Shown here piece by piece: positions 1-26,853 of a stretch of DNA of 64,000 nt. Each line of letters starts with the position of its first letter. Positions within the stretch are counted from its first letter, which is position 1. The notes under the pieces were generated by a model. That model did not search any database and was not told the DNA's origin. It was given only the letters and a program-made list of their open reading frames with translations. Position numbers and translations under genes: made by a program. This stretch comes from Lytechinus pictus (taxonomy: Eukaryota), in assembly GCF_037042905.1 (NCBI RefSeq), contig NC_087245.1:12588001-12652000 (forward strand), given 5' to 3'.

Positions 1-356
1 CAGACAATACCCTGGGGTGTCGCGAGCTCGAACGCCCGAGAAGCGAACGCAACAAGCCTGCGAATAATCTCCAAAATAATGGCTATAAAGTAAAAAGCGA
101 ACACACAATACTAGTACGTACACGCACCACATACACAATCAATCATTCTTTCGCTGCATGTTTTAGCGATCAGGATTACAACCAAGCGACAGGTGGGAAT
201 ATCGCGAGTGGTTTTTATTCATATTCTGTTGGCGCCGAACGAAAAAGTGGATATACTATCTGTATTAGATTGGAAAGTGGCGAGAAATTATCCATAGCTG
301 GAAAACTACGGAATAAACCCCTCTCCATCGAATTCTGTTGATATTTCAACAACTTG
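1..356 (+). other. Probable promoter / non-coding first exon of the ankyrin gene
   Basis: CpG-rich relative to flanks; ends in donor TTG|GTAAGA (GT at 357); the next acceptor with coding potential is at 5564. No transcript evidence. Confidence 0.4.
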
Positions 357-1811: not shown

Positions 1812-2640
1812 GGGAAACCAGCCCTGTTCATAAAATGTTGTGTCGGAAAGGGGAAAAATAAATAAAACAGAATGGTGATAGTGTGAAAGAAATCGCAATG
1901 AGAAAGTCATGGCTGCTTTTAAATTGAGATCTTTAATACTATGTATATTTCAAATTGGCAACTGGGTTCTTAAATTATGATAAGGGGCAAGGCCATGTGA
2001 TTAGGGATTTGTGGTTTTCTCCTACGTACCTATTCCCTTGGGGTAGTAATCAAAATATAACCCAGGTTTATTGTTCTGTTTTATTACCTCCTGAAAGAAA
2101 AATATAGTTTGAAATATAACTTTTGAATTTTTTAAAGCCAATTTATGTATTTGAATACATGGAAGTGTAGTGTGGAGCGTTGTGGCCCAGTGGATTAGTC
2201 TTCGGACTTTGAAACAGAGGGTCGTGGGTTCGAATCCCAGCCATGGCGTAATTTCCTTCGGCAAGAAACTGATCCACAATGTGCTGCACACAACACAGGT
2301 GAGGTAAATGGGTACCGGTAGGAAGTAATTCCTTAAAAAGCTGTGTGCGCTCTGAACGCCTAGCTTAGCCGGGTAATATAGGAGCGCCTTGAGCACCTAA
2401 CAAGGTGGATATGTGCGCAATATAAATACCCTATATTATTATTATCACATATCACATCACATATGCGGCCAATTTGAAGTCTTCACGGGTATAGTGATTA
2501 CTAATGTTTACAACTTTAAAAATTCATATCTTTAAAAATATCATATCTCATTGTTTGTCCGATATTATTTAACCTTTCACCTCGTCTGATATTTCTTTTT
2601 TCCTCTAAAAACAAGTTTTTATTTGGAATGGATTCCCCTT
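1812..2640. mobile_element. Degenerate non-autonomous DNA element, Kolobok-like, interrupted by a SINE
   Basis: Starts TTAA|AGGGAA and ends TTCCCCT|TCAA, with degenerate inverted arms. A similar end (..ACTCCCCCT|TTAA) occurs near 63430-63611. Confidence 0.4.
2173..2444 (+). mobile_element. tRNA-derived SINE (family A)
   Basis: Pol III box A TGGCCCAGTGG and box B GGTTCGAATCC, then a non-tRNA body and a (TAT)n tail. 3' fragments resemble ~5626-5680 (-) and ~58670-58730 (+). Confidence 0.85.
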
Positions 2641-2689
2641 CAACAAGAGAAGCATGTGAAAAGTAATAACTTCACAATAAAATGTAAGG

Positions 2690-2695
<6 letters not shown>

Positions 2696-2763
<68 letters not shown>

Positions 2764-2782
2764 TAGGTCCTTGCTCATCACA

Positions 2783-2823
<41 letters not shown>
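2696..2823. repeat. Two (TA)n microsatellites
   Basis: Pure TA runs at ~2696-2760 and ~2787-2823. Confidence 0.95.
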
Positions 2824-2828
<5 letters not shown>

Positions 2829-5185
2829 ATAAATTTGAAGTTAGCAGGAATTGGGTTATGGGGAAATAAAATAACAAAATTCAATTTTCATTTAAAAAAA
2901 TTAACATTTTTTATCGCTCGGGATTTTAAGATATTTTTCCCACTTGCGCAATGTTGTGCCCCCTTATTTTTATTTTTTGCTCATAACGCCATGCACCGGT
3001 AGGACATTGATTTGGTACAGTGTGTAATTATTAAAAGAAGCAAGTTAAGGGTTGGTTGACCATACTTGTCTTCCCTCTTGAAGTTAGATTTACTCTGTTG
3101 AAGCATTCTAATCAAACTATTCTTAAATACTGATGATTTTGTAATCTGCTGAATCGAGTTCATGGTGGATTGCAAAAGCTTCATTGTTTCACCTACTTTA
3201 TTTAAAGTATGCAATATCTTACAAAGTATCATAAATTTGTTTCTCACGGTTAACTCCGTTTTAATCACGATCGATCTTTATCCTTCCATGCTCTATATAG
3301 ATCTTCATCAGCAAGGTTATGCATATTGTAGCAGAGTTTCATAATCTATTCCCAGCCTGATAATATATAAAGACTGGTGTATCTGTAAAGCTCTCTCATC
3401 CCGTGGTAATCAAAAATGTGAATATTAAGATGCATTCTCATTAAACAACCCAAATAAAACATGAACAGATGTAATGAACTGTACGAGTACGTCGTATGTT
3501 CATGTAATTGAATTATTGATTTATAATCAAGATTGGTACAAAACAAAATAACAGTGATTAAACTGTGAGTCTACAGTAATAATGTCTATTATCGTTATTT
3601 CATATAAATATCAACTATTGTTTCTGTTATGTTATGTGATAAACCTATTTGTAAAATGATATCCTGTTAAAATAAATTACAATGAAATAAAACCCAACAA
3701 ACAAAATAATAAATATTGTCTAATGTCGATTAGTAACCAATTAATAATGAATACGAATAATGTGTACAAATCATAAATCGAATGAAAAAAAGAAGCTGTA
3801 AAATGAAAAATGACGAACGCTTATACGCCATAATTTAGTAAATTTACCATGATAATAAACTCAATTAGATTTTATTTAATGTCATGATGTCAAGACTATA
3901 AATTAAATTAGAAAAACTTTTTACCATCAAAATAACACAGCCAATCGTGATGTTGGTATTGTTCATAATCAATTTATATTTCATAAAAAATTTTACTTTG
4001 GTTATCCAATTTGACGTCTTAAAAGTATTCAAGAAATTAAATAGCGATTCCAAGTATTTTGTGCATAATGTCAGATTAATTGTAAAGAAAAGGGGGAATT
4101 TTGTTCAGTGATTCTACCAGAGCATTCCATCCAATCCATTTTGACTCACACCTCACCAATTGTTATGCAGTAAGATCATGACATTTTTATTATCTACCAT
4201 ATAACACTTGCCCCGATTTCATACTTTCTTCTTCTTCTTCTTCTTATTCTTCTTCTCCTCCTCCTTTCCTTCTTTTCCATCATTATCATCATCTTCTTCT
4301 TTATCTTCTCCTTCATCTCCTCCACCGATCAGTGGCGGAAATCAATAGCTGCAGGGATTCGTTCGCGTTCGACACACATGCATTAAAAACATCTGATTAA
4401 AATACAAAGAAATATACAATCAAATTTATAGTTTCCTTTGGTCGAATACTGTATACTCCTTCAAGGTTGAGTATATATGCAGACATGAATATCATATCTG
4501 TACATATTTTGCATACTTATAAAACATCTCGTAGATAATAACATTGGCTCTGCAATGACGTGCTCTAGGGAGTATTTCGACTTTCACTTCTTTAAATAGC
4601 CTTTGATGTTGACAAAGATAATCAGAACTCAACGATCCCTTATGTCACAACATTATTGAATGCTGCTCTCGGATATGTCAAAATTGGCTATTGCTATGTA
4701 TGTGCCTCTGTATATGCCATTGAACTCCATGTCAACCCTTGTTCATGTTTGTATATAATTTGTCTGTAAAAGTGTAAAATTGTTTTCTTCCCTTCACCCT
4801 TCACCTCCTTTTTCATAATTTGCAAAAGTTTTTTTTTCCTCAATTTACATTGAAATCAATCAACATAATACATATCCCAATATTTTTGTGTCTTTTTATC
4901 GGTCATTCTATTTTCTCTCTATATAGCATTATCCCCCTTAATGATATTTCTGTAATGTGTAGAACCTCGAGTGCAATATTTGATCTTACTCTTATGTTCT
5001 TATTACATTTTGTTAATTCGTAGGTATATAATTTAATGTATTTTTCCTTTTTTCTGTTAACTTTGTATGTGTCAGTCTGCGGACTGTTTTACAATGTCTT
5101 TTCATAATAAACCGAAATTGAATTGAATTGGATTCGTCTCGAAGCGCTTTACATTTTTAAAATTCCTTTTGAATGTTTTGTCATA

Positions 5186-5380
5186 TACTGTAAAAACGCT
5201 GTTACATGATGTAAAAGTGTTAAGCAACACTGTTTAAGCCTGTCACTCTAACAACTATCGCTTAAACTCTTAAACAATTGTTTAAAATTTTTAAACAACT
5301 TTTAAAAAAGTTTCAACAATAGTTGTTAGAGTGACGGGCTTACAGCGTTGCTTAACATTTTTAACAATGTTTTTACAGTG
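5186..5380. mobile_element. Palindromic MITE, CACTG-type termini
   Basis: TA|TACTGTAAAAAC...GTTTTTACAGTG|TA; inner arms GTCACTCTAACAACTAT / ATAGTTGTTAGAGTGAC. Confidence 0.75.
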
Positions 5381-5567
5381 TAACTACTACTAGTCCGGTC
5401 ATTAGAAACGGGTGTGATTAAAGATTATGAGAATAAGTTGATCTAATCTGAGATATAAAATTACATTAATAGGCCTTTTTTCCACTTTCTCTACACAAGT
5501 TATCATATTTCTCACCGTGATGGTTCCGGTTCTTCTCGCCTGGTGGTAACTGCATCATTTAAAGATC

Positions 5568-8500
5568 ATGAGTAATTGGAGTATCAAACAACGATTGCGG
5601 GAGGTATTGGGCATTTCTTTTATTTATAATAATAATAATAATAATAATAATACATGTGACTCATAAAGCGCTCAAGGCGCATTTATCAGTTCATTTTTCA
5701 TCAGTTTATCATTATCAGTTTTACAATATAGATCACTCTACCGAGTAAATTACTAATGCTCAATGATTGTATCATGCTTCTGTAGAGTATCTCCAAATTA
5801 ACAAGAGCTTGATATCGAAATATGACACATTTCATATGAAAAATTCTTATATTGATGAAATTTTCAGCAGAATGTTTTGTTTGATATTTTTACAATATTT
5901 ACCAGATCAATTTTGTTATTGTCATTGACTGTGCCTTTCATAAGGTAGCACATATACGAATATCGATATTTTACATATTTTTATTGTTCAGGAAATTTTG
6001 GAAGCCGTTGAAAAAGGAGATACGGAGAAAGTTGAATACTTGCTTGACAGAGGAGCAGATGTAAACGAAAGTGAGGTAGGATAAACAAAAAATCAAATTA
6101 GTTCATGTTAGGTTGTAAATATAACTTCATAAATTGGTATCTATCTAAATCTTATACGGAACACCATGTTTTGAAATTAGTTGTGGAAAATGGGATCGTT
6201 AACAATAAATCAGTATTCAAATTAAAGATGAAATGAATATGATATTAAAAGAAATCTTAATCTCTTTAATGTCACACTTTAAACAATCCACCAAGAGTTA
6301 TTACCGAAAGTAAATAGAATAACTTATTTCATTTCCTGAATCTAAATGACATTAATCAGCCTTTTAAAACTTTCATTTAAAAAATGAAACACAAAGTGTA
6401 TATGGCATGACGTGGTTTTATAGCTGATAAGATATATGCCTATAGAGACTAATTATAATAATTATATTATGATTGAAATAAGATTATTGCTACCATCTTT
6501 ATTATTCATTTGAAATTGATTATTTTGTCATTCTATATTTCAGGGAGGTTATATTGCCAAGAAAACTGTTCTGTTATTAGCAATAGAGAAAAATCATGAA
6601 CACATTGCAAAGCTCTTGGTTGATAAGGGTGCTGATTTAACCGTCACTGTAACAGTAAGTATAGTACTCTTATTCTCCGTCTGTTGAAATGTTTTCTGAT
6701 TTAACCGTCACTGTAACAGTAAGTATAGTACTCTCATTCTCTATCTGTTGAAATGTTTTCTGATTTAACCGTCACTGTAACAGTAAGTATAGTACTCTTA
6801 TTCTCCGTCTGTTGAAATGTTTTCTGATTTAACCGTCACTGTAACAGTAAGTATAGTACTCTCATTCTCTATCTGTTGAAATGTTTTCTGATTTAACCGT
6901 CACTGTAACAGTAAGTATAGTACTCTCATTCTCCGTCTGTTGAAATGTTTTCTGATTTAACCGTCACTGTAACAGTAAGTATAGTACTCTTATTCTCCGT
7001 CTGTTGAAATGTTTTCTGATTTAACCGTCACTGTAACAGTAAGTATAGTACTCTCATTCTCTATCTGTTGAAATGTTTTCTGATTTAACCGTCACTGTAA
7101 CATTAAGTATAGTACTCTCATTCTCCGTCTGTTGAAATGTTTTGTAAACTTGTCACCATTATGTACATTTCGATTGATACATTTAATAATTCGGAATAAT
7201 AGAACTTTGTTTACATTATTATTGGTGTTTGTGCATATATAGGTTGTATCTGCCGAGTCCTCAGTTTTTCAAATACTTTATGAATAATTAAATTCGTACA
7301 TCTTACGATATAGTGATTTATCAAAATTATCCTAGTGAGTCAGGAAAAGTTTACACCTACAAAATCGCAATTTCTATTTTTTTAAATGTCCGGAACACGA
7401 CACTGTCATATATGTCATGAGAGGGAATGTTATCCATTGAAGCCATGTTCATGTGCTATATGTTTACGCTTGAATAATTATGAAATTTTCTGTATTGCGA
7501 TGTAAAGTTCAATTTACGCCAAATAGGCATAAGGCTTGAGTTTTTTATCTACGGGTTTTATCTTTGTTGAATTATCATTCTTCTTCATCGTCTCCTCCGT
7601 GAGCATTGACTGATTTTTCAATATTGATTTTGGTTTATTTTTATTTTCTAAATTTAATTTCAGTTAACTGGTACGAAAAAGACGTTACCCGACATTGCCA
7701 GAGACAAGGGATTCAATGACTTGGCTAACCACATGCAATATAAACTTGACATGAATGAGGTTCGTATAATCCATTATTGTTTGTTTTCTCTACAGAAACT
7801 AAGGACCTACTTCAATTTTTATTCTGTCGCCTGGTCACTTATCAAGAGTGCATATAGAATAATAAGCAACCGAACACACAATCACTTGCAGTAGACAATA
7901 TCGACTATATACCTTTGCACGTTGTCCCTGATATGATCAATTTATTTTCGATTACGTCAGTGGTCTGGATAACTGACGTTTTGACCATTTTTTATACCGT
8001 CAGTCATAGAATTTAGTGTGTATAGGCCTATTAGTCGTGTTTTTTGTATATTTCCCAACATGATTTCGCTTACTGCATTAGTTATTGATACATGTAATTA
8101 GAGATAGATCTGTTAACAATAAAGAAAATCTTATCAGCAACTTAGATATAAATAGTTTGGATGAAAACAAATTATTGTATGAAGGTTACTATTTCTTTAA
8201 AAAAATATTGGGTAAAATTTTAACCAGCACGAGGGTATTTATTTGTCCAACCAATTTGGGGCAGTATTTTACCCAATGCGGGAAGCATATTGTCCAGTCA
8301 GGTTAAAAAATAAGCAGCAATTACTTTAGAATGGGCAAAACTTTCATTACACTGGATAAATCAAAATACCCAAAAGAAATGCCCAATGTTGGTTAGACAC
8401 ATAATTATCCCCATGGAGCATTTTTACCCAATATTTTTTTTTTTAGAGTGCAGCTTAAATGTTTGTTATTGATGTGTTAAAATATGCAGAGATTAACAGC

Positions 8501-11500
8501 TTCGGTTAAAGACGGTTATATCGATTACGTACAAGACAACATCAATCGAGGTGGTGATGTCAACGTCATGTATCGAGTAAGTATAGTATCAATAATTATT
8601 TATCCGATGTTTGTACGCATTCTTATGCAAATGATACAATCAAAATAAGGAGAAAATGGGACATAACATATAATTCCAGTAAGTGTTTTACAAAGCCTGT
8701 CCCTCCTACGGATGTTTCAAAATGCGGACCAAAATAATGAACATCTCAATGATTAGAATTTCATTAGCTAAGGTTGAATGAAAATATTGATTAAGGTATT
8801 AAGGTATATTTTCAGGTCAAAGCAAAATTTTGCTTTGCTTAAAGTCTGATTTTTTTTTTCGAAAAACGAATAGTCCAGAATGCATTCCTGTAGACGGGTG
8901 AGCTTTATAAGTCTGTGTTAATGCCAAACTAATGATCACAGATTTTATGATGATGCACTTCATTTTGACCAAATAGCCTACACCACGCCGACAATTAAAA
9001 TTGTTGGTTTTATATCATACTTATAAAACAGCAATATAGCTTGCTTATAATTTATTTATCATTCTTAAAGTATAATTATGCTGTATTTTACCTCTAACAA
9101 TTCCCTCATTTTTGCCTTGTAAACCAAACAGCCTCCTGAAATAGACCAACCAGATTGTACACTATTACAACTAGCTCTCATAAAAGGTCACGTGGATATT
9201 GCCAAGATCTTACTTCAAAATGGCGTCGAGTTACATTACGTGATGAAGGTATTTTAAAAGCATTATACACTCCTACTATACCCGGGCCCCCTCAAAAAAG
9301 AAAAACGCGGAAAACAAAGTGCGATGCCAAAGGGGGGTGTACGCAGGGGCGAAGATGAGAAGACGTGATAAATTGTGCATTTAATAATTAATATACCCCT
9401 TCTTTTATATCAAAAATATGTTTTGGGTCTTCTTAACCCGACTATCAAAATAAGCCAACGCAGCACCTTGGAAATGGGGCAAATGTACCAATACGAGATG
9501 TGGAGACTTCGAGTCAACTATGCATGTATCTAACCAAATTTGCACTCACATGATTGTTATGAATTTGAAATTCTTGCTGTCATCATGGTCATGTACATTG
9601 TCATTATCATGAAAGTGAAAAGAGGCAAATTATGGATCTTACCAAATTGCGCAAGGGTGGCGATTTTATGTTGAGAGTGTGGGGGGGGGGGGCGGCGTCA
9701 AAGTTGACCGCCTCAAATCTGGAGCGGTCAGAGCAGGATATTTGGCTGAAAAAACCTCAAAGCAATCAGAACATGCAATCACATCAGCTTATTTTACAAA
9801 ATATTACAATGAAAGATACAAAGTTGTAATTTCGAAGGTGTTTCCAATGTGATATTGATTTGCTCCTTAGAGGTGTTACGTTGAACTTGCCAGTCTGAAT
9901 ATGTAGCTATAAAAGGATGTGATAGAGGTTTGACGGATGCCGATATATGAGAGGTGACTACTAAAGGAATCAAACCAGCCATTGATTGAAAAAAGGAGAA
10001 GATAACGCGGGTTATAAATTTACAACTAAGTGCTCCCTCATGATAAATGTACGTGTTCATGATGAAACCACCCTTGGCATCAATCAATGTTGTTTTCCTG
10101 CATTGTGGGGGCTCTCTATTGTGTAACTTATTGTTACATGGAGCTCGTTCATATCATGTTTATGATTACTTAGCAACGAATGTAAAATCAAATGTCATTT
10201 ATGCACCGCCCCCAGCCTTCTATTCTCTCCCAAACACCCCATGCAGCGTCTTTGCTATATACTCATCCCGTTGTGTTCTTTTTTTTCTTTGTCACCATGC
10301 AGTCGAGGTAGGAGGTGACTGCTTCCTATTCAAGCATCAAATATATTTGAACAGAATAATAAAATATAAGAGAGAAAAAAGGGAAGAAGACAAAATCGTG
10401 TTGAAAAGGGTGACTTAGCCGTAGATCATGATGAATACCCCTTATTTTTTCATCACCGAAAAACGTCTACTTCACCCCTATTGAAATACACTTGCTCTTC
10501 CCCGCTTTAAACCTTAATATTAATTATGTTTGGTAAAACTGATGTATATTTGTGCACGTATATATTCAACTATTCAAGCCTACAAGCCCCCAACCTTCAT
10601 TTTCTTGGGGGTCTTATCGGTTATGTTCTAATATATTTCTTAGCCTTGTTACCTATTTACATGGATTGTTGTATTGAGTACTGATTGAATAAAGACAATG
10701 TATCAGTATACAGAATGCTACATAAACCATTAACAAAACAGACGTGCGTTTCCCGAAAAAAAAAATCAAATTTGTAAGTCCATCAGTCTCCCACAAATGG
10801 GGCCTATTTATAACAATTATTATTATTTTAGGTGTCTTGATATACGTGCAAAATGCAAATTTTCAACAAACTACTCTGAGATTATTTTACCTGAAAGGTA
10901 TAATGACCCTTTTAATGATATTACATTGATATTACAATGATATTACACGACAGTTTGCATCTGATTGAAATAGATTTCATGATACATTTGTAATCCTAAG
11001 TCTTATTTTTATAATTCCATTATTTTTTAATTACATATTTAGTGGGATGATCAGTCAGAAGATACGGCGAAAACCTATGCAGAAAGAATGAATTATGACG
11101 ATATTGTCAAATTAATCGAGGAAAAATTAAAAGTATTACCAAACAACGTAAGTATGAAACTTATCATATTAAGGCGATGCCAAGTATCAATTTTCATTTC
11201 TATTTATAGTATCCGAATTGTCTTTAAAAATGTTAAAATATTGTGCTCCCCTTCAAACAGTAGCTGGGTAGATAAATGATTAACAAGATATTGAAATTTT
11301 GTTTTAGCCGGTTCTTTTACGCCCTCAAATCACGCTCCCGGAACCCCCCAAAATAAGATATTGTTACTCAATAAAGGACTCCGTGCATGGACGTAAAAAC
11401 TCTGTCAAAAATGAAATAAAGCGTGTAAAGTAAGCATTTCAGAAAAAGTGTACTTTTCAGATAGAGTGGAGAACACAGTGTACTAATTTGAGAGCATTGG

Positions 11501-14500
11501 ATGCATGGACGCGTTCACTTGAGTCCTACGATATAAGCACTCTTTCAAATTTCTTACCAATTATAAAATAATTGTTTCATATTTATATCAAGAAGTGCGT
11601 GCATATTCAGTAGTCATTTGTTTGTTCATTTCCATAGGTTTATGAACTTATGTAACGTACGTTCTGCACGTAACCTCTCGAATTATACAACAGCGTAATT
11701 TTTTACGATTTGTAATTTTTATATTTATTGCATTCTGCCTCTTTTCTAAAAGGCTCTTAACATTGTTACCATAGAAACAAATCCTCTATCGAAATTAAGA
11801 GTTAATCCATGTTTTTCGACATTTCCCACCTAAATAACATGATAATATAATAGGTTTCTTCGAAATGAGTGAAGAAAATGAATCTTTATTCTAAACATTA
11901 TAAAACGTTATACACGCTTCTTTCCAACTAATAGAATTCCAAAGTGGCTAATGGGAACGGCGTTTCAAATTATGAGGTAAGTAAAACTTGAAACTTTTTA
12001 CAAATATTTTAACGACATAGCTGCATAGTTGAGAATACTAGTACCAGAAATCAAGGTGCAGTTTACGGATAAAATCATTGGTGGGACCCATGGGGGTGGC
12101 GGTGATGGTGGTGGCGGTGGTGATGATGATGATGGTGGTGGTGATGGTGATGATGATGGTGATGGTGATGATGATAGTGGTGGTGGTGATGATGGTGATG
12201 ATGGTGGTGGTGATGACGATGATGATGGCGGTGGTGGTGGTGATGGTGATGATGATGGTGGTGGTGATTATGATGAAGGTAGTGATGATGGTGGTGGTGG
12301 TGATGGTAATGATGGTGATGATGATATGGTGAAGATGATGGTGATGATGACGATGATGATGATGGTGGAGATGATGATGGTGATGGTGGTGGTGGTGATG
12401 CTGATGATGGTGGTGGTGGTGGTGGTGATGATGATGATGGTGGTGATGATGATGATGATGGTGGTGGTGGTGATGATGATGATGATGATGATGGTGGTGG
12501 TGGAGATGATGATGATGATGGTGGAGATGATGATGACGATGATGATGATGGTGAGAATGGTGAAGATGATGGTGATGATGACCATGATGATAGTGGTGGA
12601 GATGATGATGATGGTGATGATGATGGTGGTGGTGGTGGTGATGGTGATGATGGTGGTGGTGGTGATGATGATGATGGTAGTGATGATGGTGGTGGTAGTG
12701 ATGATGATGGTGGTGGTGATGATGATGGTTGTGGTGGTGGTGGTGATGGTGATGATGGTGGTGATGATGATGATGATGATGGTGGTGGAGATGATGATGA
12801 TGATGGTGGAGAGGATGGTGATGATGATGATGATGGTGGTGGTGGTGCTGATAGAGATGAAGGTGGTGGTGGTGGTGGTGATGATGATGATGATGGTTGT
12901 GGTGGAGGTGGTGGTGATGGTGATGATAATGGTGGTGATGATGATGATGATGATGGTGGAGATGATGATGATGATGGTGGTGGTGTAGGAGATGATGATG
13001 ATGATGATGGTGCAGATGATGATGATGATGATAATGATGATGGTGGTGGTGGTGATGGTGATGATGATGGTGGTGGTGGTGATGATGATGATGGTAGTGA
13101 TGATGGCGGTGGTGGTGATGGTGATGATGATGCTGGTGATGATGATGATGGTGATGATGATGATGATGATAAACATTTTAGACCAATAATGAAAATAGCG
13201 TTCATGAATCATTTATCGTCTTCGGTATCAAGTATGATAAATATATTTTGGCAATATTTCCCTCTGAGTACGAAAATCTTTCACTCTTTTCATCACAGGA
13301 AATCAACGAAACGAAAGGAAAACACGTTGAAGTATATGATATAGAAGACGTGGATGAATTGCAGGTGTGTTTCTTTCTGCTTCTTTTTTGATAAATCAGT
13401 TTTAGAAATAAGTTTATGATATTTATTTTGGAAAACTATTTGTTTGTGAAGTTACAGCCAAATCAATGTATAAGATTGAGTTGAGTGCTGTATAAACCAA
13501 TGATAATTATGATGCGAGAAGAGAAGGATGAGAGGGAAAGAGGAAGAGTTGTAAGAATAGATAGGCATGATAGGGGGAGGAGGAACGGAAGGAAAAGAAT
13601 ATGATAATGAAGAAAACGAAGCTCTACAATTATACGGGAAGAATTTTGAAAAAGAAACAGGAAATGAAAATGAGTAATAATCTTTCTAATGATGATGATG
13701 ATGATGATGATAATAATAACAATAATGTATTTTTGTAGCTTTTGATACTAGTATTTATCATGTTTTTATATTGTACAATTTGAATATGGTAATAAAAGAA
13801 TGGAATTGAATTGAATTGAATAATAATAATGAAAATGATAATAATGATGATAATAAAAACAATAATAATTCAGTTTTAATAATAATTATAGTAATATCAT
13901 GATCATCATGAACATCGTCATCATTTTCATCAGTATCCATATATTCCAGAGCGTAGAACTCTACCTCACATTATGTTACCTTCCAAAGTTCACTTGATTA
14001 CTCGTCTCTTAATCGTGCGTAAGACTATGCGTCACTACCATGGTGACAAGTATTATCTCCATGGTAACATGATGAAATTTACGACACCTGAAAAAAGTTG
14101 ACTATTAGAAAGTCGATATAGATAATTGGGCTCACGAAGGCCTGTGAAATAATTATTTCTGGTTGAATCAATTAGATGTATCGAAGAAATTGAAATATGT
14201 GAGAGATTTAAAAAATAATGTCCTCTCAAGTACAAATGGCCCCGAGAAACAAATATATCTCGCAAAATTTCAAAATTTATCTTAAAAACATACAAAATTA
14301 AAAAGTTCTTATTTGTCTAAGATTGATGTTGGATATCCCAGAATTATCAAATAATGTAAAGGGGGGGGGGGCACCCTCGCGCGAACATGGATATTAAAAA
14401 TCCCCTTAAACGCGTTATGTCCACATGCATTAAGAAAATTAAGAAAATTTAGACAAAATTTTGTGTCTCGCCCACTCGTAAAAATAACCAGAAATATCGT

Positions 14501-17010
14501 GATTTGCGAGGGCACGCAACAGAATTGTATCGAAACTTCATTGTGAAATGACTGAGATGGAATGATACTTGTCATTAGAGTCTTTAACGTAAACGTTAAT
14601 GTTGACCTGAAAATGGCCTTTGACCTTCCCATGCAACCTCCGACTGCAGCATAACATGCAGGTCCCCCAAGTACATCTCCCTTCCAAGTTTGGTTGAAAA
14701 TTGACTTACGGTTGCGGAGTTAGGTGTCATAATGAGAGTCTTGCATGTAAACTTTAACGTTGACCTGAAAATGACATTTGACCTTACCATCTGACCTCCG
14801 ACTGCACCATAACATAGGTTCCCAAGGTACATCTACCATCCAAGTTTGGTTGAAAAGTGACTTACGGTTGCGGAGTTATGTGTCATAAGAGAGTCGATTC
14901 TTGCATGTAAACTTTAACGTTGACCTGAAAATGACCTTTGACCTTACCATGTAATCTCCGACTGCAGCATAACATGCAGGGCCCCAAGTCCATCTACAAT
15001 CCAAGTTTGATTGACAAGTGACTTACGGTTGCGGAGTTATGTGTCATAAGGTGTGTGACGGACGGACGGACGACATTTTGATCCCTAAGTCTCGCCTTCA
15101 CCTCTGGTGGGCGAGACAAAAAGGATACGTAATTGGGGATCTTCCTACAAAAAAGAAGTGAAATTCCAACCACTTTTTATAATCGTAAACAGGATAGGTT
15201 TATAAATAAACAATTAATGCGAGCGCGAAGCCCGAGCGGAAAAATTCGAGACTTAGACCTACAAACAGGACGCTCTATTCATGTTTTATAAATCATGAAT
15301 TTCAATGGAAAATGATGAGTAATTGGGAATCTTCCTACATTGATAATGCTAATTATGATTAATAATAAGAAGTGCGAGCCGGAAATTTGTGATATTCTGA
15401 TCAGAAACTGGATTATGATTTAAATAGAGAACAAGCTGCTTATCTAAATAAACATGCGCGCGCATCTTTCATATTTAGACATAGAATCTGGGTATTCTAA
15501 ATGCATTTTTTATCATGAAAATCAATAAAGCGAGCGCTAAGCGCGAGCTTAAAATATTTGATATTCCGATCTAAAAAACGATCAAATTAAGCTCTATATT
15601 TCACGCACTTTGTAGGAAAATTATGAGGTGGACATGGATCGCACTTTGTTTTTTTAATAATAAAGAGCTGATATTTTACTATTTTTATTATTCTATTATT
15701 TACTTTGAGTTTTGACATGGGACCGGGACATTCTTATGACATTTTGTCAACGTATGAAAATGATTGCTATCTTCCTATTCCTTTTCCTAAACGCGAGAGG
15801 AAACTTGTCGATATTCCATTCTGAAAAGTGGCAATTTAATTATTGAATTAATATCTTATTAATTAATTCAATAAGCCTATGAGAGCGCAAAAATCGGTTA
15901 ATATTATGGCCTGAAAACTGGATTTTTCAAGCACTTTTGTAATTTGAATACGATGCATGAGTTGATATATTTTTAACAATTAATGCGAGCACAAATCTCG
16001 AGCTGAATTTTTTGTTAAACTGTCATGAAATGGGGATTTTAAGTTTGTTAAAGAATTAATATTGAGTTATACATAACTCACCAATCAAAATGCGAGCGCG
16101 CAGCGCTATAGCTGACACTTTTTGACAATCAGACCGGAAAATGGATAATTTGAGAACTTTATGAAATACACGAAATTAATAGGTACTTGACAAATCAAAT
16201 TTTGCGAGCAGAAAATATAGATATTCAGACCATAAAACTGACTCGGACACTTTTTACAAAGTACTTTAAAAAAATCAATTTGTAAATCAAACATTATCAT
16301 GAAAGTTCGATTTCCGAGCTGAAATATGTTTGTATATTGAATTCAAAACTTGATATGTTAAGCTCCATATGGAGGAAGATATGTAAATCACCAAACAGGC
16401 AATGCGAGCGCGAAGCGCGAGCGAAAATTTTATATAGTGACATAATTCAATTTTTTTCCAAGTCTTCCCCTCATCTTATTTCTTCTTTCTCTTATTTTTC
16501 CTCTTCTTTCTCCCTCTTTTTCGCTTTTCCTTTTTTTCCCTTTCCCCCTTTTTTTGTTTATTTTTGCTCCGGCACTAGGCGGGGGGAGGGGGCAGGCCCC
16601 TCGGGCCCCCTGGATCCGCCTATGCACAAATCTCCATCATCTCCAATGACGAAACTTTTTTGCCACATTTTTACTTTAAGCCGACTTCCTTGAAAACTGA
16701 GATTGGCTACCATAGGAAATATACCGGAAAATGAAATATAAAGGCCTCGACAAAATGCGCGACAATTAATAAATAGTATAATTTTTTTTTACAAGTCCTG
16801 TCTTAATTATATATGGGTGTCTCATTGAAATTATGTGTCATTATATGAAAGTAACATTATAATGGGTGTGTCACTGGCATGATGTATCAAGGCGACTTTG
16901 TAAATGAAAGTGTCAGTCAATGGCCTTTTTTCTCCATGCAGGAAAACAACACAGCTCCAGCTATGCAGGCTCATCAGAAGAAGAAGAATGGCAACTGCGT
17001 CATTAGTTGA
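5568..17010 (+). CDS. Ankyrin-repeat protein (~270 aa, 6 ANK-like repeats) with C-terminal CaaX prenylation motif; 10 coding exons
   Basis: Hand-assembled exons, all GT-AG and phase 0: 5568-5603 (MSNWSIKQRLRE), 5992-6075 (EILEAVEKGDTEKVEYLLDRGADVNESE), 6544-6654 (..KTVLLLAIEKNHEHIAKLLVDKGADL..), 7664-7759 (..TLPDIARDKGFNDLANHM..), 8490-8576 (RLTASVKDGYIDYVQDNINRGGDVN..), 9132-9248 (..TLLQLALIKGHVDIAKILLQNGVEL..), 11043-11147, 11935-11976, 13299-13364, 16942-17010 (..HQKKKNGNCVIS*). Candidate AATAAA at 17815, 18200, 18341. Confidence 0.85.
6632..7143 (+). repeat. 64-bp minisatellite x8 spanning an exon 3' end and splice donor
   Basis: Unit CTGATTTAACCGTCACTGTAACAGTAAGTATAGTACTCT..GAAATGTTTT starts at 6632, 6696, 6760, 6824, 6888, 6952, 7016 and 7080. 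Confidence 0.97.
8192..8450. mobile_element. Palindromic MITE, CACTC-type terminus
   Basis: AAAAAAATATTGGGTAAAA ... TTTTACCCAATATTTTTTT..AGAGTG; further inner arm similarity (TCCAACCAA / TTGGTTAGA). Confidence 0.65.
12095..13170. repeat. ~1.1-kb compound (GAT/GGT)n trinucleotide microsatellite, intronic
   Basis: Mixed GAT/GGT triplets between ankyrin exons 11935-11976 and 13299-13364. Confidence 0.97.
14452..15122 (-). mobile_element. HINE/pearl/Tsp-type element (Helentron-associated-like), family 1
   Basis: Subterminal IR GTCTCGCCCAC / GTGGGCGAGAC, (GGAC)n microsatellite, three ~155-bp internal repeats, T/A-run flanks. Reverse-complement copy at 45752-46427. Confidence 0.8.
15123..16624 (+). 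mobile_element. 5'-truncated copy of hAT-like non-autonomous element with GCGAGCGCGAAGCGCGAGC subrepeats
   Basis: Colinear with ~31490-32324; same terminus CCCCCTGGATCCGCCTATG. Confidence 0.7.
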
Positions 17011-17591
17011 TATTGCAATCAAGCAAAAAAAAAGACTTTGAATACTGCTTCCAGTATAAGCGCCTGTTGTCATGGTGAGATTGGTACCAATGACTTGATC
17101 CGTCTACAAGGAGTCCATCATCTTCTGAGGAAACACCCACCAATCCTCCGCATTCTCCCAAACTAGCTAGGCTGCTTCTTTTTATGGCTTTACAAACGAG
17201 CATAAAAGGACTCATGACAGGCCCCAGCATTTCCCCATGTTCTGATCAAGTATCTATCTTCATCTCAAGAGTATTAATACCTCCCAAATCTAATATAATG
17301 ATACGATAATGTATTTTTAAGAACATAACTCAATGGCTTGTTTTAAAAGAGGGTTTATCAATTTCTGCGTTATTCAAATTTCGGAATTGATAATCATTCT
17401 TATGTAGGTCTCATAAACAAAGTTAAACCAAGCTAATTAATCAGCTTTGGAATGATACATCAACTGGTGACGTCACTTATCTTCGCCTGGAGTTCCGCCA
17501 TGATAATTTATGACAATCAAACATAGTTGAGATGTAATATAATCATTAGGGAAATTATCTGGAAATAATGCTGCACATTGTTATGTAATTG

Positions 17592-17805
17592 CACACTAAA
17601 AACTGAAATGTTAAATGAGCAGTATTATTGAAAGGTTGGAGGAGTTACAACCTTTACCAAAGGTTGCATTGCCCTCTTTAAATGGTTTGATCCATGCAAC
17701 ACTTAGTTGGATTCAGCTTTATGCAATGTTGGATACAACATTTTGAAAAAGTTGCCATTCCTCCGACCTTTCAATTGCTGATTTAACATTGCAGTTTTTA
17801 GTGTG
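17592..17805. mobile_element. Palindromic MITE, CACTA-type termini, in putative 3' UTR
   Basis: CACACTAAAAACTG.AATGTTAAAT...ATTTAACATT.CAGTTTTTAGTGTG; inner arms TTGAAAGGTTGGAGGA / TCCTCCGACCTTTCAA. Confidence 0.75.
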
Positions 17806-18459
17806 TGCTATTAGAATAAATATTCCCAGCAAGTTAGGAGTAATAACAGTCGTCGTGTAAATAAATATGTCAGTAAATTATGAGAGTCGCAGATCAATTA
17901 TTGATAGATGACATCTATAGGTTTCTTGTGTGTTTCAGAAATTGTGTTGCCATGGTAACGTGCGAAGTTGTATAAACATTTTATACATTTTAGATCGAGT
18001 AGGAATTAATCTGAAATTATTTTAATCGTAAGGGAACATCCGAATTTAGATTAAGGAGTTTTATTTAATACAGTATTGATTATGTATATTACAATATTTC
18101 TAAACTTATTTTGGATTCAACCTGAATTAGAAATCAAACTTGGCTTGACATTGAATAATATATTACCGTTAAGTTTTAGACAGCTAATTATGATATCAGA
18201 ATAAATAAAGCACCGAATTCCAGTTCTATGATAGCGTGCAATATTTTATTTGATATTGATGACCTCCGTCCTTTTTGTAACAAGTATAATATAGTTTTAT
18301 TATCATGTAATGCGTAGTTATACTTATATATATTTTGTGAAATAAATTTTGTTGATAAATAATATATAAAATGATAATAGTGTGTGTAGGCTTAAAATTT
18401 AGCTTATAATTAATTTTATTTCTAGATATATCCTATTTTTCAATCGTGGACAAATTTCA

Positions 18460-22394: not shown

Positions 22395-25300
22395 TGTTAC
22401 ACCCACAAATGTAATAATCGCCCACAAATGTAATAACGCCCACAAATGTAATAACACTTTACCCACAAATGTAATAACGCCCACAAATGTAATAACACTT
22501 TACCCACAAATGTAATAATTTCACCCACAAATGTAATAATGCACTTTACCCACAAATGTAATAATTTTTGATCGCCCACAAATGTAATAATGACTTTACC
22601 CACAAATGTAATAAATTTGAAGGGATTTTTGGCGAATCTGTTCTAAACTAAAATCCTATAGTAATGCGTTCATATAGCACAAAAGTGCAAAGTCTTTTTT
22701 CCAGACCCGGTTAATAAAACATTATAGTACAATTCCAAAGTCTTTTTCCAGACCCGGTTGTTTCAAAATTATAATATACGTCCAAAGTCTTTTTTCCAGA
22801 CCAGGTTAATTCAAAAATTATAATATACACCCGGTTGTTTCAAAAATTATAATGCAGGTCCAAGGTATTTTTTCAGACCCGGTCGTTTCAAACATTAGAA
22901 TATAAAAAAGTCCAAAGTCTTTTTTCCAGAACCGGTTGTTTCAAAAATTATAATATACGTCCAAAGTCTTTTTTCCAGACCCGGTTGTTTCAAAAATTAT
23001 AATGTAAACATTAGAATATAAAAAAGTCCAAAGTCTTTTTTCCAGAACCGGTTGTTTCAAAAATTATAATATACGTCCAAAGTCTTTTTTCCAGACCCGG
23101 TTGTTTCAAAAATTATAATGCAAGTCCAAAGTCTTTTTTTTCAGACCCGGTCGTTTCAAACATTAGAATATAAGTCCAAAGTCTTTTTTCCAGACCCGGT
23201 TGTTTCAAAATAATCATAAGTCCAAACTAAGATAATGATATTCTAGTGGAATAAAATGAGAATCGAGCTTAGTCTTTTCTCCAGACAAAGTCAATTAAAA
23301 CTTGTGGAAAAGTAACAAAGACCCCCACTCTCTTGTAAATATTATATAACATGGAAATATAGCGTAGTCTTTCATCCAGACCCAGATCTTTCAAATAACA
23401 AATGAATAATAATAATGATAATAAATTAGTAATAATAAAAAAGCAAACAAAGACCCACGATCATATTTATGCTGAATAACATTGAAATATAGCGTAGTCT
23501 TTCCTCCAGACCCAGATCTTTCAAATAAGAAATGATGAACAATAATAATAAATTAGTAATAATAATAAAGCAAACAAAGGCCCACGATCCTCTTTATGTT
23601 GAAAAATATGGAAATATAGCGTAGTCTTTCCCCCAGACCCAGTTATAAAAGTAATTAAAAACACAACAACAACAAAACAAAGACCCTGCAATCTTTTGAA
23701 CATTGAATAACATGGAAATATGCTGTAGTCTTTCTTATTATTATTTCAAAATAACCAAAATCATTAAAAAAGAATAACAGAATCTAAGGCCCAACTATCC
23801 TTCAAACTAAGAACCTTCAATAAATAAAAGTTTAGAGAGCTTTCTTTATTCCAGACCTTGTCATTTCAGAAATAAGATAAATGAAATCCTCATAACTAAG
23901 ACTCACTCATATTCTTGTGCCTGTACAACATGAATAAGATGATTGGGGGAGTATTTCATCAACATTTATGTCCGACAAGTTGTCAGATCTGACAACTGTT
24001 CTTGATGTTGATTGGCTGAGAAGCAGTGCTACCAGTGTCGGATAAAACGTCAAACAACTCCTTTCATGAAATGCTCCCCGGGCTCTAAGTTTTGATGTTG
24101 TTTTTTTATTATAGATTTCTTTGCCTGGAAGAAAAAATGAATGTTTAATTGCATCATTTACAGGATGTTAGGCTGGAAGAGGGTTGAATTTTTTTTTTTT
24201 CTGTTTTTTTTTAATAAACTGGTCTGGTCAAATTAAGTATGCGTTATCAAAAGGGTTTTATAGTTTGGAAGATGCTGGGGTCTAGGTTTTAAGATTAATG
24301 TTTCGCTTAATTTGTATTTTAAAGAGAACTGGGTGAGGGGTAAAGACAACACTCTAAGCCCAAGCATTTTAAGTGGGTTTAATTTTGAGGATTGGTCTTA
24401 GCTGTGATTATTTTTCAATATTTTTTTATCTTTTAAATAACCGGGTCTAGACGAAAGACTAAGCATAATACTCGTGTTATTCCACAAGAATAAGAATATG
24501 ACAAAGTCTTTTGTTTTTAAGACTGTTTAAATCATTTTTAAATTACTGGGTCTGGAATAAAGACAACGCTCTAAACATGTGCTTTTCTACATGCATGGTC
24601 TTAATTTGGAGGATTGTTGGTCCTAAAACTCGTTTTGGGGGGTTGGGTTTTATTGATTTTTTATTCTTCAAATAATTGTGTCTGGAGGAAAGTCGATCTT
24701 CGACAATCGGTCTTCATGTTATTCCACAGAAATTAGATTATTGGGTATTCGTTTTAGAATATTTGTAAAAACTATTTTATTTTTTTCAAATAATAACCAA
24801 GTCTGGAGAAAGGATGTTTGCTTTACCCATGCATTATTACAATGTTTTGTAGGGGTCGTAGTATTATTTAAAAAACTGCGTATGGGGTAAAGACATATTT
24901 TTTTTACTGGGTGAAACTTTGGAAAATTGGTCTTAGATTTGAAGTTTTTTAATTCATTTTATAATAGCCGGGTCTGGAGGACAGACTTTGGACTTATATT
25001 GTAATTGTTTAATTATCCGGGTCTGGAAAAAAACACTTTGCACTTTTGTGCTATATGAACGCATTGCTATAGGGTTTAGTTTTTAGTTTTAAGTAACCGG
25101 GTCTGGAGAAAAGACTACGCTTGATTCTCAATTTACTCTTAGCGCATATATTCACAATATACGCCGTATAAGTTAAAACAACAACAAAGACATTTATTCC
25201 ATCTAGTTTAAATTAACTGGGTCTGGAGAAAAGACTAAGCTCGATTCTCGTTTTTTTTCTGGAATACCATTAACGTAACTTAGTTTGTACTTATATTATA

Positions 25301-26853
25301 ATTTTTTTAATAACCGGGTCTGGAAAAAAGACTTTGGACTTATATTGTAATTGTTTAATTATCCAGGTCTGGAAAAAAGACTTTGCACTTTTGTGCTATA
25401 TGAACGCATTGCTTTAGGGTTTAGTTTTTAGTTTTAAGTAACCAGGTTTGGAGAAAAGACTATGCTTGATTCTCAATTTACTCTAGCACATATATTCACA
25501 ATATACGCCGTATAAGTTGAAACAACAACAAAGACATTAATTCCATCTAGTTTAAATTAACTGGGTCTGGAGAAAAGACTAAGCTCGATTCTCATTTTTA
25601 TTCCACTGGAATATCATAATCGTATCTTAGTATGGACTTAAACTATAATTTTTGAAATAAACGGGTCTGGAAAAAGACTTTGGACTTATATTAAAATTTT
25701 TGAAACAACCGGGTGTGGAAAAAAGACTTTGGATTTGCATTATAATTTTTTAATTAACCGGGTCTGAAAAAAAGACTTTGGACTTATATTAAACTTTTTG
25801 AAACAACTGGGTCTGGAAAAAAGACTTTGGACTTATATTATAATTTTTTAAACAACCGGGTCTGAAAAAAAGACTTTGGACGTATATTATAATTTTTGAA
25901 ACAACCGGGTCTGGAAAAAAGACTTTGGATTTATATTATAATTTTTGAAACAACCGGGTCTGAAAAAAAGACTTTGGATTTATATTACAATTTTTTAAAC
26001 AACCGGGTCTTGAAAAAAGACTTTGGACGTATATTATAATTTTTGAAACAACCGGATCTGGAAAAAAGACTTTGGACGTATATTATAGTTTTTTAATTAA
26101 CCGGGTCTGAAAAAAAGACTTTGGACTTATATTAAACTTTTTGAAACAACCGGGTCTGGAAAAAAGACTTTGGACTTATATTATAATTTTTTAAACAACC
26201 GGGTCTGAAAAAAAGACTTTGGACGTATATTATAATTTTTGAAACAACCGGGTCTGGAAAAAAGACTTTGGATTTATATTATAATTTTTGAAACAACCGG
26301 GTCTGAAAAAAAGACTTTGGATTTATATTACAATTTTTGAAACAACCGGGTCTTGAAAAAAGACTTTGGACGTATATTATAATTTTTTAAACAACCGGAT
26401 CTGGAAAAAAGACTTTGGACGTATATTATAGTTTTTTAATCAACTGGGTCTGGAAAAAAGACTTTGGACGTATATTATAATTTTGAAACAACCGGGTCTG
26501 GAAAAAGACTTTGGACTTGTACTATAATGTTTAATTAACTGGGTCTGGAAAAAAGACTTTGCACTTTTGTGCTATATAAACGCATTACTATAGGATTTTA
26601 GTTTAGAACGAATTCGCCAAAAATCCCTTCAAATTTATTACATTTGTGGGTAAAGTCATTATTACATTTGTGGGCGATCAAAAATTATTACATTTGTGGG
26701 TAAAGTGCATTATTACATTTGTGGGTGAAATTATTACATTTGTGGGTAAAGTGTTATTACATTTGTGGGTGTTATTACATTTGTGGGTAAAGTGTTATTA
26801 CATTTGTGGGCGTTATTACATTTGTGGGCGTTATTACATTTGTGGGTGCAACA
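22395..26853. mobile_element. Foldback-type non-autonomous DNA transposon (4.46 kb) with modular inverted arms
   Basis: Termini TGTTACACCCACAAATG / CATTTGTGGGTGCAACA; outer arrays of CCCACAAATGTAATAA; inner arrays of a ~58-bp unit (AAAGACTTTGGAC..AACCGGGTCTGG) in opposite orientation in the two arms; inserted in a C-run. Confidence 0.88.
23946..24079. mobile_element. Small MITE nested in the foldback element
   Basis: GGGGAGTATTTCAT...ATGAAATGCTCCCC; internal palindrome AGTTGTCAGATCTGACAACT. Confidence 0.6.

What the first reader, a model, noticed from the sequence alone, without database searches (positions are those of the whole stretch)
16942..17010. Small ankyrin-only protein ending in a basic patch + CaaX box (KKKNGN-CVIS*)
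Seen: the last exon encodes ENNTAPAMQAHQKKKNGNCVIS then stop, after a ~50-aa acidic linker. Established: CaaX with X=Ser is a farnesyltransferase substrate, and upstream lysines act as a second membrane-targeting signal (K-Ras4B-type). Inference: this is a lipid-anchored ankyrin scaffold with no catalytic domain, an architecture I cannot assign to a known family. The exons are too short to appear in the ORF track.
Basis: partly seen in the sequence, partly recalled or inferred. Interest (0 to 1): 0.7.

Follow-up and report, generated by a model that had tools for sequence, protein, structure and literature searches.

The report
Lipid-anchored double ankyrin adaptor family
This sea urchin gene encodes a small, unstudied protein made of two rigidly joined binding modules and a tail that ends in a lipid-attachment signal kept from sea urchins to acorn worms, so it is probably a membrane-tethered adaptor with partners still to be found.

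Summary
16942-17010 is the last of ten phase-0 coding exons (5568-17010). The spliced 270-aa product equals a RefSeq Lytechinus pictus model labelled 'ANKRD50-like' and ends KKKNGN-CVIS.

It belongs to a distinct, apparently unstudied family found in all five echinoderm classes and in hemichordates. Cys at -4 is kept in 13 of 14 aligned orthologs, although in non-echinoids the tail before it is only 12-31% identical. Only 3 of 159 unrelated ankyrin hits have it. Prenylation is therefore very likely, though not shown.

Two AlphaFold models give two 3-repeat ankyrin modules, from an internal duplication, joined by one continuous helix, then a disordered tail holding a conserved acidic DxED motif.

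It is not AnkAT-1 (57 kDa, basic), lacks MYPT3/TIMAP's PP1 motifs, and the ANKRD50 label looks generic. The junction was not seen in reads. Restriction to echinoderms and hemichordates is only weakly tested.

Verdict: a new variant of a known kind, the prenylated ankyrin adaptor.

The parts
5568..5603 (+). Coding exon 1 (aa 1-12): ATG and N-terminal lead-in helix carrying the family motif W-x3-Q-x-LRE
   Evidence: motif in 20 family records and in none of the non-family proteins held
5992..6075 (+). Coding exon 2 (aa 13-40): ankyrin repeat 1, module 1
6544..6654 (+). Coding exon 3 (aa 41-77): conserved GGY loop and ankyrin repeat 2
6632..7143 (+). 64-bp minisatellite, 8 copies, that repeats the exon 3 donor site (1 used, 6 intact decoys, 1 mutated)
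7664..7759 (+). Coding exon 4 (aa 78-109): repeat 3 and first half of the continuous helix 95-117 that joins the modules
8490..8576 (+). Coding exon 5 (aa 110-138): ankyrin repeat 4, module 2; paralogous to exon 2
9132..9248 (+). Coding exon 6 (aa 139-177): ankyrin repeat 5; skipped in predicted isoform X2 of both Lytechinus species; weak splice sites
11043..11147 (+). Coding exon 7 (aa 178-212): repeat 6, end of the folded part
11935..11976 (+). Coding exon 8 (aa 213-226): start of the disordered tether
13299..13364 (+). Coding exon 9 (aa 227-248): acidic segment with the conserved D-x-E-D motif (240-243)
16942..17010 (+). Coding exon 10 (aa 249-270 and stop): three lysines and CaaX box CVIS; Cys267 is the predicted farnesylation site
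17011..18346 (+). Probable 3' UTR; AATAAA candidates at 17815, 17860, 18200 and 18341 (none tested)

Best explanation
The gene encodes a prenylated, peripheral-membrane adaptor with no enzyme activity. (1) Farnesyltransferase adds farnesyl to Cys267 of CVIS, normally followed by removal of the last three residues and methylation (inferred from the motif, its conservation and known CaaX chemistry; not shown). (2) Farnesyl plus three lysines gives weak, reversible binding to internal membranes and partly to the plasma membrane (inferred). (3) A disordered tether of about 55 aa holds the folded head off the bilayer (predicted) and carries a conserved acidic D-x-E-D motif, probably a docking site (inferred). 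(4) The head is not one six-repeat stack. It is two three-repeat ankyrin modules that arose by duplication of a three-exon unit and are fixed to each other by one continuous helix (predicted in two models), so it can hold two partners at a set geometry (inferred). Module 1 carries invariant non-consensus residues (W4, Q8, R11, E12, G41, Y43) and is probably the site for an ancient partner. Skipping exon 6 would break module 2 and leave a one-site form (inferred from predicted isoforms). The partners are not identified.
For: The gene model is open and in phase and equals RefSeq P0003. Cys -4 is present in 13 of 14 aligned orthologs (12 of 13 named species plus one unnamed record), while residues 209-266 are only 12-31% identical outside echinoids; background is 3 of 159. 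The gene tree matches the species tree as recalled: echinoids with the sea cucumber (92/92), hemichordates (100/99), asteroids (99/98). Only ankyrin domains are found. Both AlphaFold models show helix 95-117 and a tail with pLDDT under 50. Each half matches three-repeat ankyrin domains closely (1n0q: Z 12.0, rmsd 2.1 over 88 residues for model 109-206; Z 10.7, rmsd 1.9 over 89 residues for model 11-105), while full-span matches have rmsd 10-21 A. The top PDB sequence hits are DARPin-DARPin rigid fusions. Internal duplication scores 63-118 against shuffle maxima of 26-33 in 4 of 4 proteins tested. CVIS is a farnesylation motif in ZAP-L. P0059, called on one 1357-base contig, runs in one frame from repeat 2 to a CTVC end and groups with starfish, so it is probably a spliced transcript (DNA not seen).
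Against: There is no biochemical, localisation or expression evidence, and the last junction was not seen in reads. 6 of 24 family records lack the CaaX: two fragments, two older models, one shorter isoform, and the only brittle-star record. pTM is only 0.66-0.67 from alignments of 11-14 sequences, so the angle between the modules is uncertain. Some partial structural matches run past the junction at moderate rmsd (6rz3: 126 residues, rmsd 3.5; 6jmt: 138 residues, rmsd 5.1). Module 2 is less conserved than module 1 (29-43% against 45-51% in full-length non-echinoid orthologs), which also fits a single binding site.
Confidence: 0.6

Rival explanations
1. A prenylated one-partner regulator: module 1 binds and inhibits or sequesters one signalling protein at a membrane, as small ankyrin-only inhibitors do (INK4, IkappaB, NRARP, myotrophin; functions recalled). 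Module 2 is a spacer or stabiliser.
For: The invariant non-consensus residues lie mostly in module 1. The predicted isoform without repeat 5 exists in both Lytechinus species, so module 2 may be dispensable.
Against: Both modules are kept in every full-length ortholog, and module 2 has its own invariant residue D180 (14 of 14) and R192 (12 of 14).
Confidence: 0.2
2. One reading: farnesyl plus a polybasic patch gives a stable, K-Ras4B-like plasma-membrane anchor.
For: Basic residues precede the Cys in all 13 CaaX-bearing orthologs, and there are 6 in a row in Glandiceps. No palmitoylable Cys lies in the last 30 residues of those 13, so the basic patch is the only second signal.
Against: Only 3 Lys here and 2 in Diadema. 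A farnesylated peptide with three basic residues was largely on internal membranes (PMC8361095). An acidic segment lies 20-30 residues upstream.
Confidence: 0.1
3. A ciliary prenylated cargo, sorted by PDE6D, acting in larval cilia as AnkAT-1 does.
For: The family is found in animals with ciliated larvae (recalled), and sea urchin ciliary proteomes list several ankyrin proteins (PMC3812683).
Against: High-affinity PDE6D cargo has a large hydrophobic residue at -1 and Ser at -3 (PMC5512577). 0 of 14 sequences have a large hydrophobic -1, and echinoids also lack the -3 Ser. Mass and pI differ from AnkAT-1. Caveat: low-affinity cargo is not barred from cilia.
Confidence: 0.05
4. The CaaX is not used: the terminal exon is a prediction artefact, or the Cys is kept for another reason and the protein is soluble.
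For: All named records are computed models (XP_ or PIK accessions); the brittle-star record and one crinoid isoform end without CaaX; no reads were seen.
Against: Independent genome annotations of 12 species converge on C-a-a-X at the exact end. The older sea-cucumber model's tail fits a one-base frameshift of the CaaX-coding tail (all 11 codons compatible; 0 of 2000 shuffles). The older S. purpuratus model diverges exactly at the exon 7 donor, as intron read-through would.
Confidence: 0.04
5. A shortened MYPT3/TIMAP-like subunit that targets PP1 to membranes.
For: Same order of parts: N-terminal helix, ankyrin repeats, C-terminal CaaX (PMC6737228).
Against: No RVxF/KVxF and no MyPhoNE pattern in 14 of 14 sequences.
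Confidence: 0.02

Closest known systems
MYPT3 / TIMAP (PPP1R16A/B)
   Same: Animal ankyrin-repeat proteins with a C-terminal CaaX that gives prenylation and membrane association (PMC6737228 passages; PMC1847700 passage).
   Different: They carry MyPhoNE and KVxF motifs for PP1c; 0 of 14 family members do. They are about twice as long (recalled).
Legionella AnkB and avipoxvirus ankyrin-CaaX proteins
   Same: Small ankyrin proteins anchored by farnesylation: AnkB has three repeats and a CaaX (PMC5506055 passages); a canarypox/fowlpox ankyrin protein has a predicted farnesylation motif (PMC1847700).
   Different: AnkB has an F-box and is a bacterial effector; no F-box was found here. This family is a vertically inherited, intron-rich animal gene with two modules.
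Engineered DARPin-DARPin rigid fusions; tankyrase ankyrin clusters
   Same: Short ankyrin modules linked by a helix. DD fusions are the top PDB sequence hits (5le2, E 1.5e-26); tankyrase ARC1-3 appears in the fold list (5jhq, Z 11.8, rmsd 12.7 over 190 residues). That these use a shared or linking helix is recalled.
   Different: Analogy of architecture only; whole-model superpositions are poor (rmsd 7.5 A or more in the Foldseek list), so the module angle differs or is uncertain.
Sea urchin AnkAT-1 (SPU_024961)
   Same: A sea urchin protein named for ankyrin; needed for apical tuft cilia (PMC4215294 passages).
   Different: 57.2 kDa, pI 8.69 against 30.3 kDa, pI 4.85 for the S. purpuratus ortholog. 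No direct sequence comparison was possible.
ANKRD50 (the RefSeq label)
   Same: Ankyrin repeats.
   Different: Vertebrate ANKRD50 is a large retromer/WASH-associated protein (title seen in a reference list; size of about 1400 aa and PDZ-binding end recalled). Orthologs of this gene carry other labels in other species (2-5A-dependent ribonuclease-like, ANKHD1-like, RBE_0997, uncharacterized), so the names look like generic best hits.

Membership tests
CaaX-prenylated proteins | Cys four residues from the C-terminus, followed by two mostly aliphatic residues | tested here: met
   CVIS here; Cys -4 in 13 of 14 orthologs
CaaX-prenylated proteins | X residue suited to farnesyltransferase (M, S, A, Q) | tested here: met
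   X=S in the window protein; rule from PMC13524398. X is L in the crinoid and F in two hemichordates.
CaaX-prenylated proteins | Isoprenoid actually attached to the Cys | not testable with these tools
   Needs labelling or mass spectrometry
K-Ras4B-type anchor | Polybasic run (about six Lys, recalled) next to the farnesyl-Cys | tested here: not met
   Longest K/R run is 3 here, 2-3 in 12 of 13 CaaX-bearing sequences and 6 in Glandiceps only
MYPT3/TIMAP (PPP1R16) | KVxF/RVxF PP1-docking motif before the ankyrin repeats | tested here: not met
   0 of 14 sequences match the pattern anywhere; feature from PMC6737228
MYPT3/TIMAP (PPP1R16) | MyPhoNE motif | tested here: not met
   0 of 14
MYPT3/TIMAP (PPP1R16) | Ankyrin repeats plus C-terminal CaaX | tested here: met
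AnkAT-1 | Size and charge of SPU_024961 (57.2 kDa, pI 8.69) | tested here: not met
   Ortholog P0004 is 30.3 kDa, pI 4.85
AnkAT-1 | Sequence orthology, and apical-tuft expression under FoxQ2 | not testable with these tools
   The AnkAT-1 sequence was not on hand and the original paper is not in the library
ANKRD50 | Large multi-domain protein with a PDZ-binding end (recalled) | tested here: not met
   270 aa ending in CVIS; full-length orthologs are 258-302 aa. The defining feature is from memory.
ANKRD50 | Reciprocal orthology with vertebrate ANKRD50 | not tested
   No vertebrate ANKRD50 sequence was fetched
Legionella AnkB-type F-box ankyrin | F-box domain | tested here: not met
   No F-box Pfam match at E 0.1 in 4 of 4 proteins or at E 0.01 in 3 of 3 further orthologs
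High-affinity PDE6D ciliary cargo | Large hydrophobic residue at -1 and Ser at -3 before the prenyl-Cys | tested here: not met
   -1 is N, G, T or S in 14 of 14; -3 is Ser in 6 of 14; rule from PMC5512577

The most novel reading that the evidence does not exclude
An echinoderm-hemichordate innovation: a natural 'tandem DARPin' in which a duplicated three-exon ankyrin module is locked to its twin by one shared helix and hung from membranes by a prenyl anchor. The lipid type and charge have been retuned by lineage (farnesyl with 2-3 basic residues in sea urchins; geranylgeranyl-type ends in a crinoid and perhaps acorn worms), and an exon skip conserved in Lytechinus switches it between two-site and one-site forms. 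It would be a splice-controlled, membrane-bound cross-linker of two signalling proteins with no counterpart among the characterised prenylated proteins found in the searches.
Probability: 0.25. Interest if true: 0.65.

Novelty: new variant of a known kind. Interest (0 to 1): 0.45.

Why it matters
Prenylated ankyrin proteins are few. The animal examples found in the library are the PP1 subunits MYPT3 and TIMAP. This is a separate family that has kept its lipid signal since echinoderms and hemichordates split, and it is filed under misleading automatic names in different genomes. It can be tested directly in L. pictus (C267S, knockouts, pull-downs per module), and its predicted shared-helix two-module head is a natural parallel to engineered rigid DARPin fusions. 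It does not overturn any principle, and without a partner or phenotype its importance is open.

Tried and rejected
AnkAT-1: rejected on mass and pI; the original paper was not available to read.

Alternative starts: the ATG at 5520 leaves phase 2, which does not fit the phase-0 acceptor at 5992; the ATG at 5568 gives the RefSeq N-terminus.

Metagenome scan with the family alignment: 282 pattern matches, 147 confirmed, best 80 kept. All were generic ankyrin matches (best E 6e-12); no ortholog or cDNA was recovered.

ESM Atlas: whole protein gave only generic ankyrin clusters; the tail 205-270 gave no usable hit. Neither shows novelty.

Fold searches gave ankyrin domains only, with no natural full-length match; absence from these lists is no evidence of a new fold.

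Literature: six accession or locus ids gave 0 papers. 'sea urchin + prenylation + ankyrin' gave 5 papers and 'ankyrin repeat + CaaX + echinoderm' gave 6, none about this gene by title or abstract start. 'ankyrin repeat + CaaX + farnesylated' gave 43, of which 30 were listed, none about it. Most subscription papers are not in the library.

The ciliary proteome supplements of PMC3812683 list 17 ankyrin rows by SPU id; 4 were seen and none could be mapped to this gene.

The acidic tail motif is not an aDLF motif, since it lacks the Phe (definition in PMC9038204 passages). A Src-type YEEI in the linker (motif recalled) is not conserved beyond Lytechinus.

The idea that the acidic tail folds back onto module 1 remains untested: no complex model is available, and the single-chain models leave the tail at pLDDT under 50.

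The internal alignment used overlapping halves and was uninformative; it was redone.

The small word shares of non-matching runs were not used. Earlier findings of the scan: nothing returned.
Full report
1. Observation. The 69 bases at 16942-17010 follow a strong CAG acceptor and read ENNTAPAMQAHQKKKNGNCVIS*. With splice weights set by hand from the recalled metazoan consensus, this acceptor scores highest of the 14 sites above 6 bits between 13400 and 22000. Upstream lie nine more exons: 5568-5603, 5992-6075, 6544-6654, 7664-7759, 8490-8576, 9132-9248, 11043-11147, 11935-11976 and 13299-13364. Every intron is GT-AG and phase 0, and the frame is open for 270 codons. The product is identical to P0003, RefSeq XP_063952297.1/XP_054751925.1 of Lytechinus pictus, labelled 'ankyrin repeat domain-containing protein 50-like isoform X1'. 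The linker has 10 acidic and 3 basic residues over 211-258. A CaaX-like end occurs in 6 of 1553 AG-to-stop stretches of the window, so it is uncommon but not decisive alone.

2. The family. One exon retrieved the L. variegatus and S. purpuratus proteins. The full protein added Diadema. A phmmer search of 1.84 billion representatives (30,644 hits at E 0.001, best 150 listed) gave six further short, single-stretch matches, and a profile search added three more. Look-ups named them as starfish (Patiria, two Asterias), brittle star (Amphiura), sea cucumber (Apostichopus), crinoid (Antedon) and acorn worms (Ptychodera, Glandiceps, Saccoglossus), plus one unnamed JGI record. The sea urchin and Ptychodera proteins align end to end at 37% identity. 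A profile of the family separates 24 family records (best domain 112-413 bits) from all other stored proteins (81 bits or less); the profile was built from 14 of those 24, so part of the gap is by construction. The tree of 15 rows groups echinoids (94/95), asteroids (99/98), hemichordates (100/99) and echinoids with the sea cucumber (92/92), as the species tree is recalled; three rows have long branches. This fits vertical inheritance of one gene. No member outside echinoderms and hemichordates was found, but the test is weak. The phmmer list was cut at 150 rows dominated by long ankyrin proteins. The profile search returned only 3 of the 8 cluster representatives in its own alignment.

3. The C-terminus. 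In the 14-sequence alignment, 13 have Cys at -4: CVIS, CIIS, CTVS, CVVC, CTVC, CIIT, CVIL, CVIF. Residues 209-266 are only 12-31% identical to the window protein outside echinoids, so the Cys is kept against a drifting background. Among 159 non-family proteins, 3 have Cys at -4. Ten family records were left out of that alignment as isoforms, near-copies, fragments or older models. Over all 24 records, 18 end in CaaX and 6 do not. Two of the six are fragments (P0167, P0183). The older S. purpuratus model P0002 diverges exactly at the exon 7 donor, as the window's own read-through does, and the newer model ends CIIS. The older sea-cucumber model P0178 has a tail fully compatible with a one-base frameshift of the CaaX-coding tail (11 of 11 codons; 0 of 2000 shuffles; DNA not seen). 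Antedon isoform X2 lacks it while X1 has it. The single brittle-star record lacks both the acidic segment and the CaaX. It diverges near the exon 8 boundary, which suggests read-through (inference), but true loss is not excluded. P0059 was called on a 1357-base contig, runs in one frame over what spans eight exons here, and ends CTVC. It is probably a starfish cDNA, and so indirect transcript support.

4. What the tail predicts. X = Met, Ser, Ala or Gln directs farnesylation and Leu or Ile geranylgeranylation (PMC13524398, passages). CVIS is the S-farnesylation motif of ZAP-L, where it moves the protein to endomembranes with fairly weak binding (PMC8568172, passages). The sea urchin protein should therefore be farnesylated and the crinoid one geranylgeranylated; Phe in acorn worms may go either way (recalled). 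The second signal is modest: 3 Lys here, 2-6 K/R across the 13, and no nearby Cys for palmitoylation. [quoted passage not shown] 'K-Ras4B-type' thus overstates the case for sea urchins. The residues at -1 and -3 do not match high-affinity PDE6D cargo (PMC5512577, passages), which argues against exclusive ciliary sorting.

5. The head. Only ankyrin families pass their Pfam cut-offs. Exons 2-4 (28, 37, 32 aa) parallel exons 5-7 (29, 39, 35 aa), and the halves align well above shuffles in 4 of 4 proteins, so a three-exon unit was duplicated before echinoderms and hemichordates split. AlphaFold models of the sea urchin and acorn worm proteins agree: six repeats with long beta-hairpin loops, one unbroken helix at 95-117 that ends module 1 and starts module 2, and a tail with pLDDT under 50 (pTM 0.67 and 0.66). 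The two models share most of their alignment, so they are not independent. Each half matches three-repeat ankyrin domains at about 2 A (1n0q: Z 12.0, rmsd 2.1, 88 aligned; Z 10.7, rmsd 1.9, 89 aligned), while full-span matches lie at 10-21 A. A few partial matches cross the junction at 3.5-7 A. The best PDB sequence matches are engineered DARPin-DARPin rigid fusions. Residues invariant beyond the ankyrin consensus are W4, Q8, R11, E12, G41 and Y43 (13 of 13), D180 (14 of 14), and D240 and E242 in the tail (13 of 13). That the module 1 residues form one surface patch is inferred; coordinates were not examined. RefSeq predicts an isoform without exon 6 in both Lytechinus species, and that exon has weak splice sites (1.1 and 5.3 bits).

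6. Mechanism. Shown: the gene structure, the domain content, the duplication and the conservation of the CaaX. Predicted: two modules on a shared helix and a disordered tether. Inferred: farnesylation of Cys267 (about 0.85 on its own), weak reversible membrane binding, and recruitment of two partners by the two modules, with the acidic motif as a further docking site and exon 6 skipping as a valency switch. Confidence in the whole chain is 0.6. The main rival is a one-partner inhibitor using module 1 (0.2). A stable plasma-membrane anchor (0.1), ciliary cargo (0.05), an unused CaaX (0.04) and a PP1 subunit (0.02) are less likely.

7. Comparison with known systems. It works like MYPT3/TIMAP or AnkB in joining ankyrin repeats to a prenyl anchor, but it is a member of neither. 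It has no KVxF or MyPhoNE motif (0 of 14; features from PMC6737228, passages) and no F-box (PMC5506055, passages). The PRENbase paper names PPP1R16 and avipox proteins as ankyrin-bearing prenylation cases (PMC1847700, three passages). AnkAT-1 differs in mass and charge (PMC3812683, passages and four supplement rows; PMC4215294, passages); the original AnkAT-1 paper was seen only as a reference line. The ANKRD50 label is one of several unrelated automatic names given to orthologs. Four searches found no paper on this gene. The library lacks most subscription journals, and expression or proteome supplements indexed by SPU ids could hold it unseen.

8. Verdict. It is a new variant of a known kind: an unstudied, apparently echinoderm-hemichordate family of prenylated ankyrin adaptors with a predicted two-module, shared-helix head. 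Interest 0.45; the most novel reading has probability 0.25 and would merit 0.65.

Noticed in passing
window 6632-7143: A 64-bp minisatellite of 8 copies starts inside exon 3 and repeats its donor site. Six intact decoy GTAAGT donors follow the real one and the eighth is mutated; using any decoy would bring in a stop at codon 48 of the extended exon. A natural test of 5' splice-site choice.
   Followed up: partly
window 33242-49313 (+): An NBR1-like gene lies downstream: ORF 44106-44447 matches Pfam N_BRCA1_IG (E 2.8e-14), and a probable first coding exon starts at 33242 (PB1-like by recall). Synteny with the ankyrin gene in other species was not tested.
   Followed up: partly
window 9132-9248: Exon 6 (repeat 5) is skipped in RefSeq isoform X2 of both L. 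pictus and L. variegatus, and has weak splice sites.
   Followed up: partly
window 22400-26850: Two related arrays of short tandem repeats in opposite orientation (about 22400-23200 and 24990-26850) lie between the two genes, seen by eye; possibly the ends of a foldback or MITE-like element.
   Followed up: no
window 1-5567: Possible non-coding 5' exons: donor candidates at 192 and 356 and an AG acceptor at 5500 ahead of the ATG at 5568.
   Followed up: no
P0023 (Amphiura), P0167 (Saccoglossus), P0178 (Apostichopus), P0002 (S. purpuratus): Public models that appear truncated, read through into an intron, or frameshifted at the 3' end and so hide the CaaX.
   Followed up: partly
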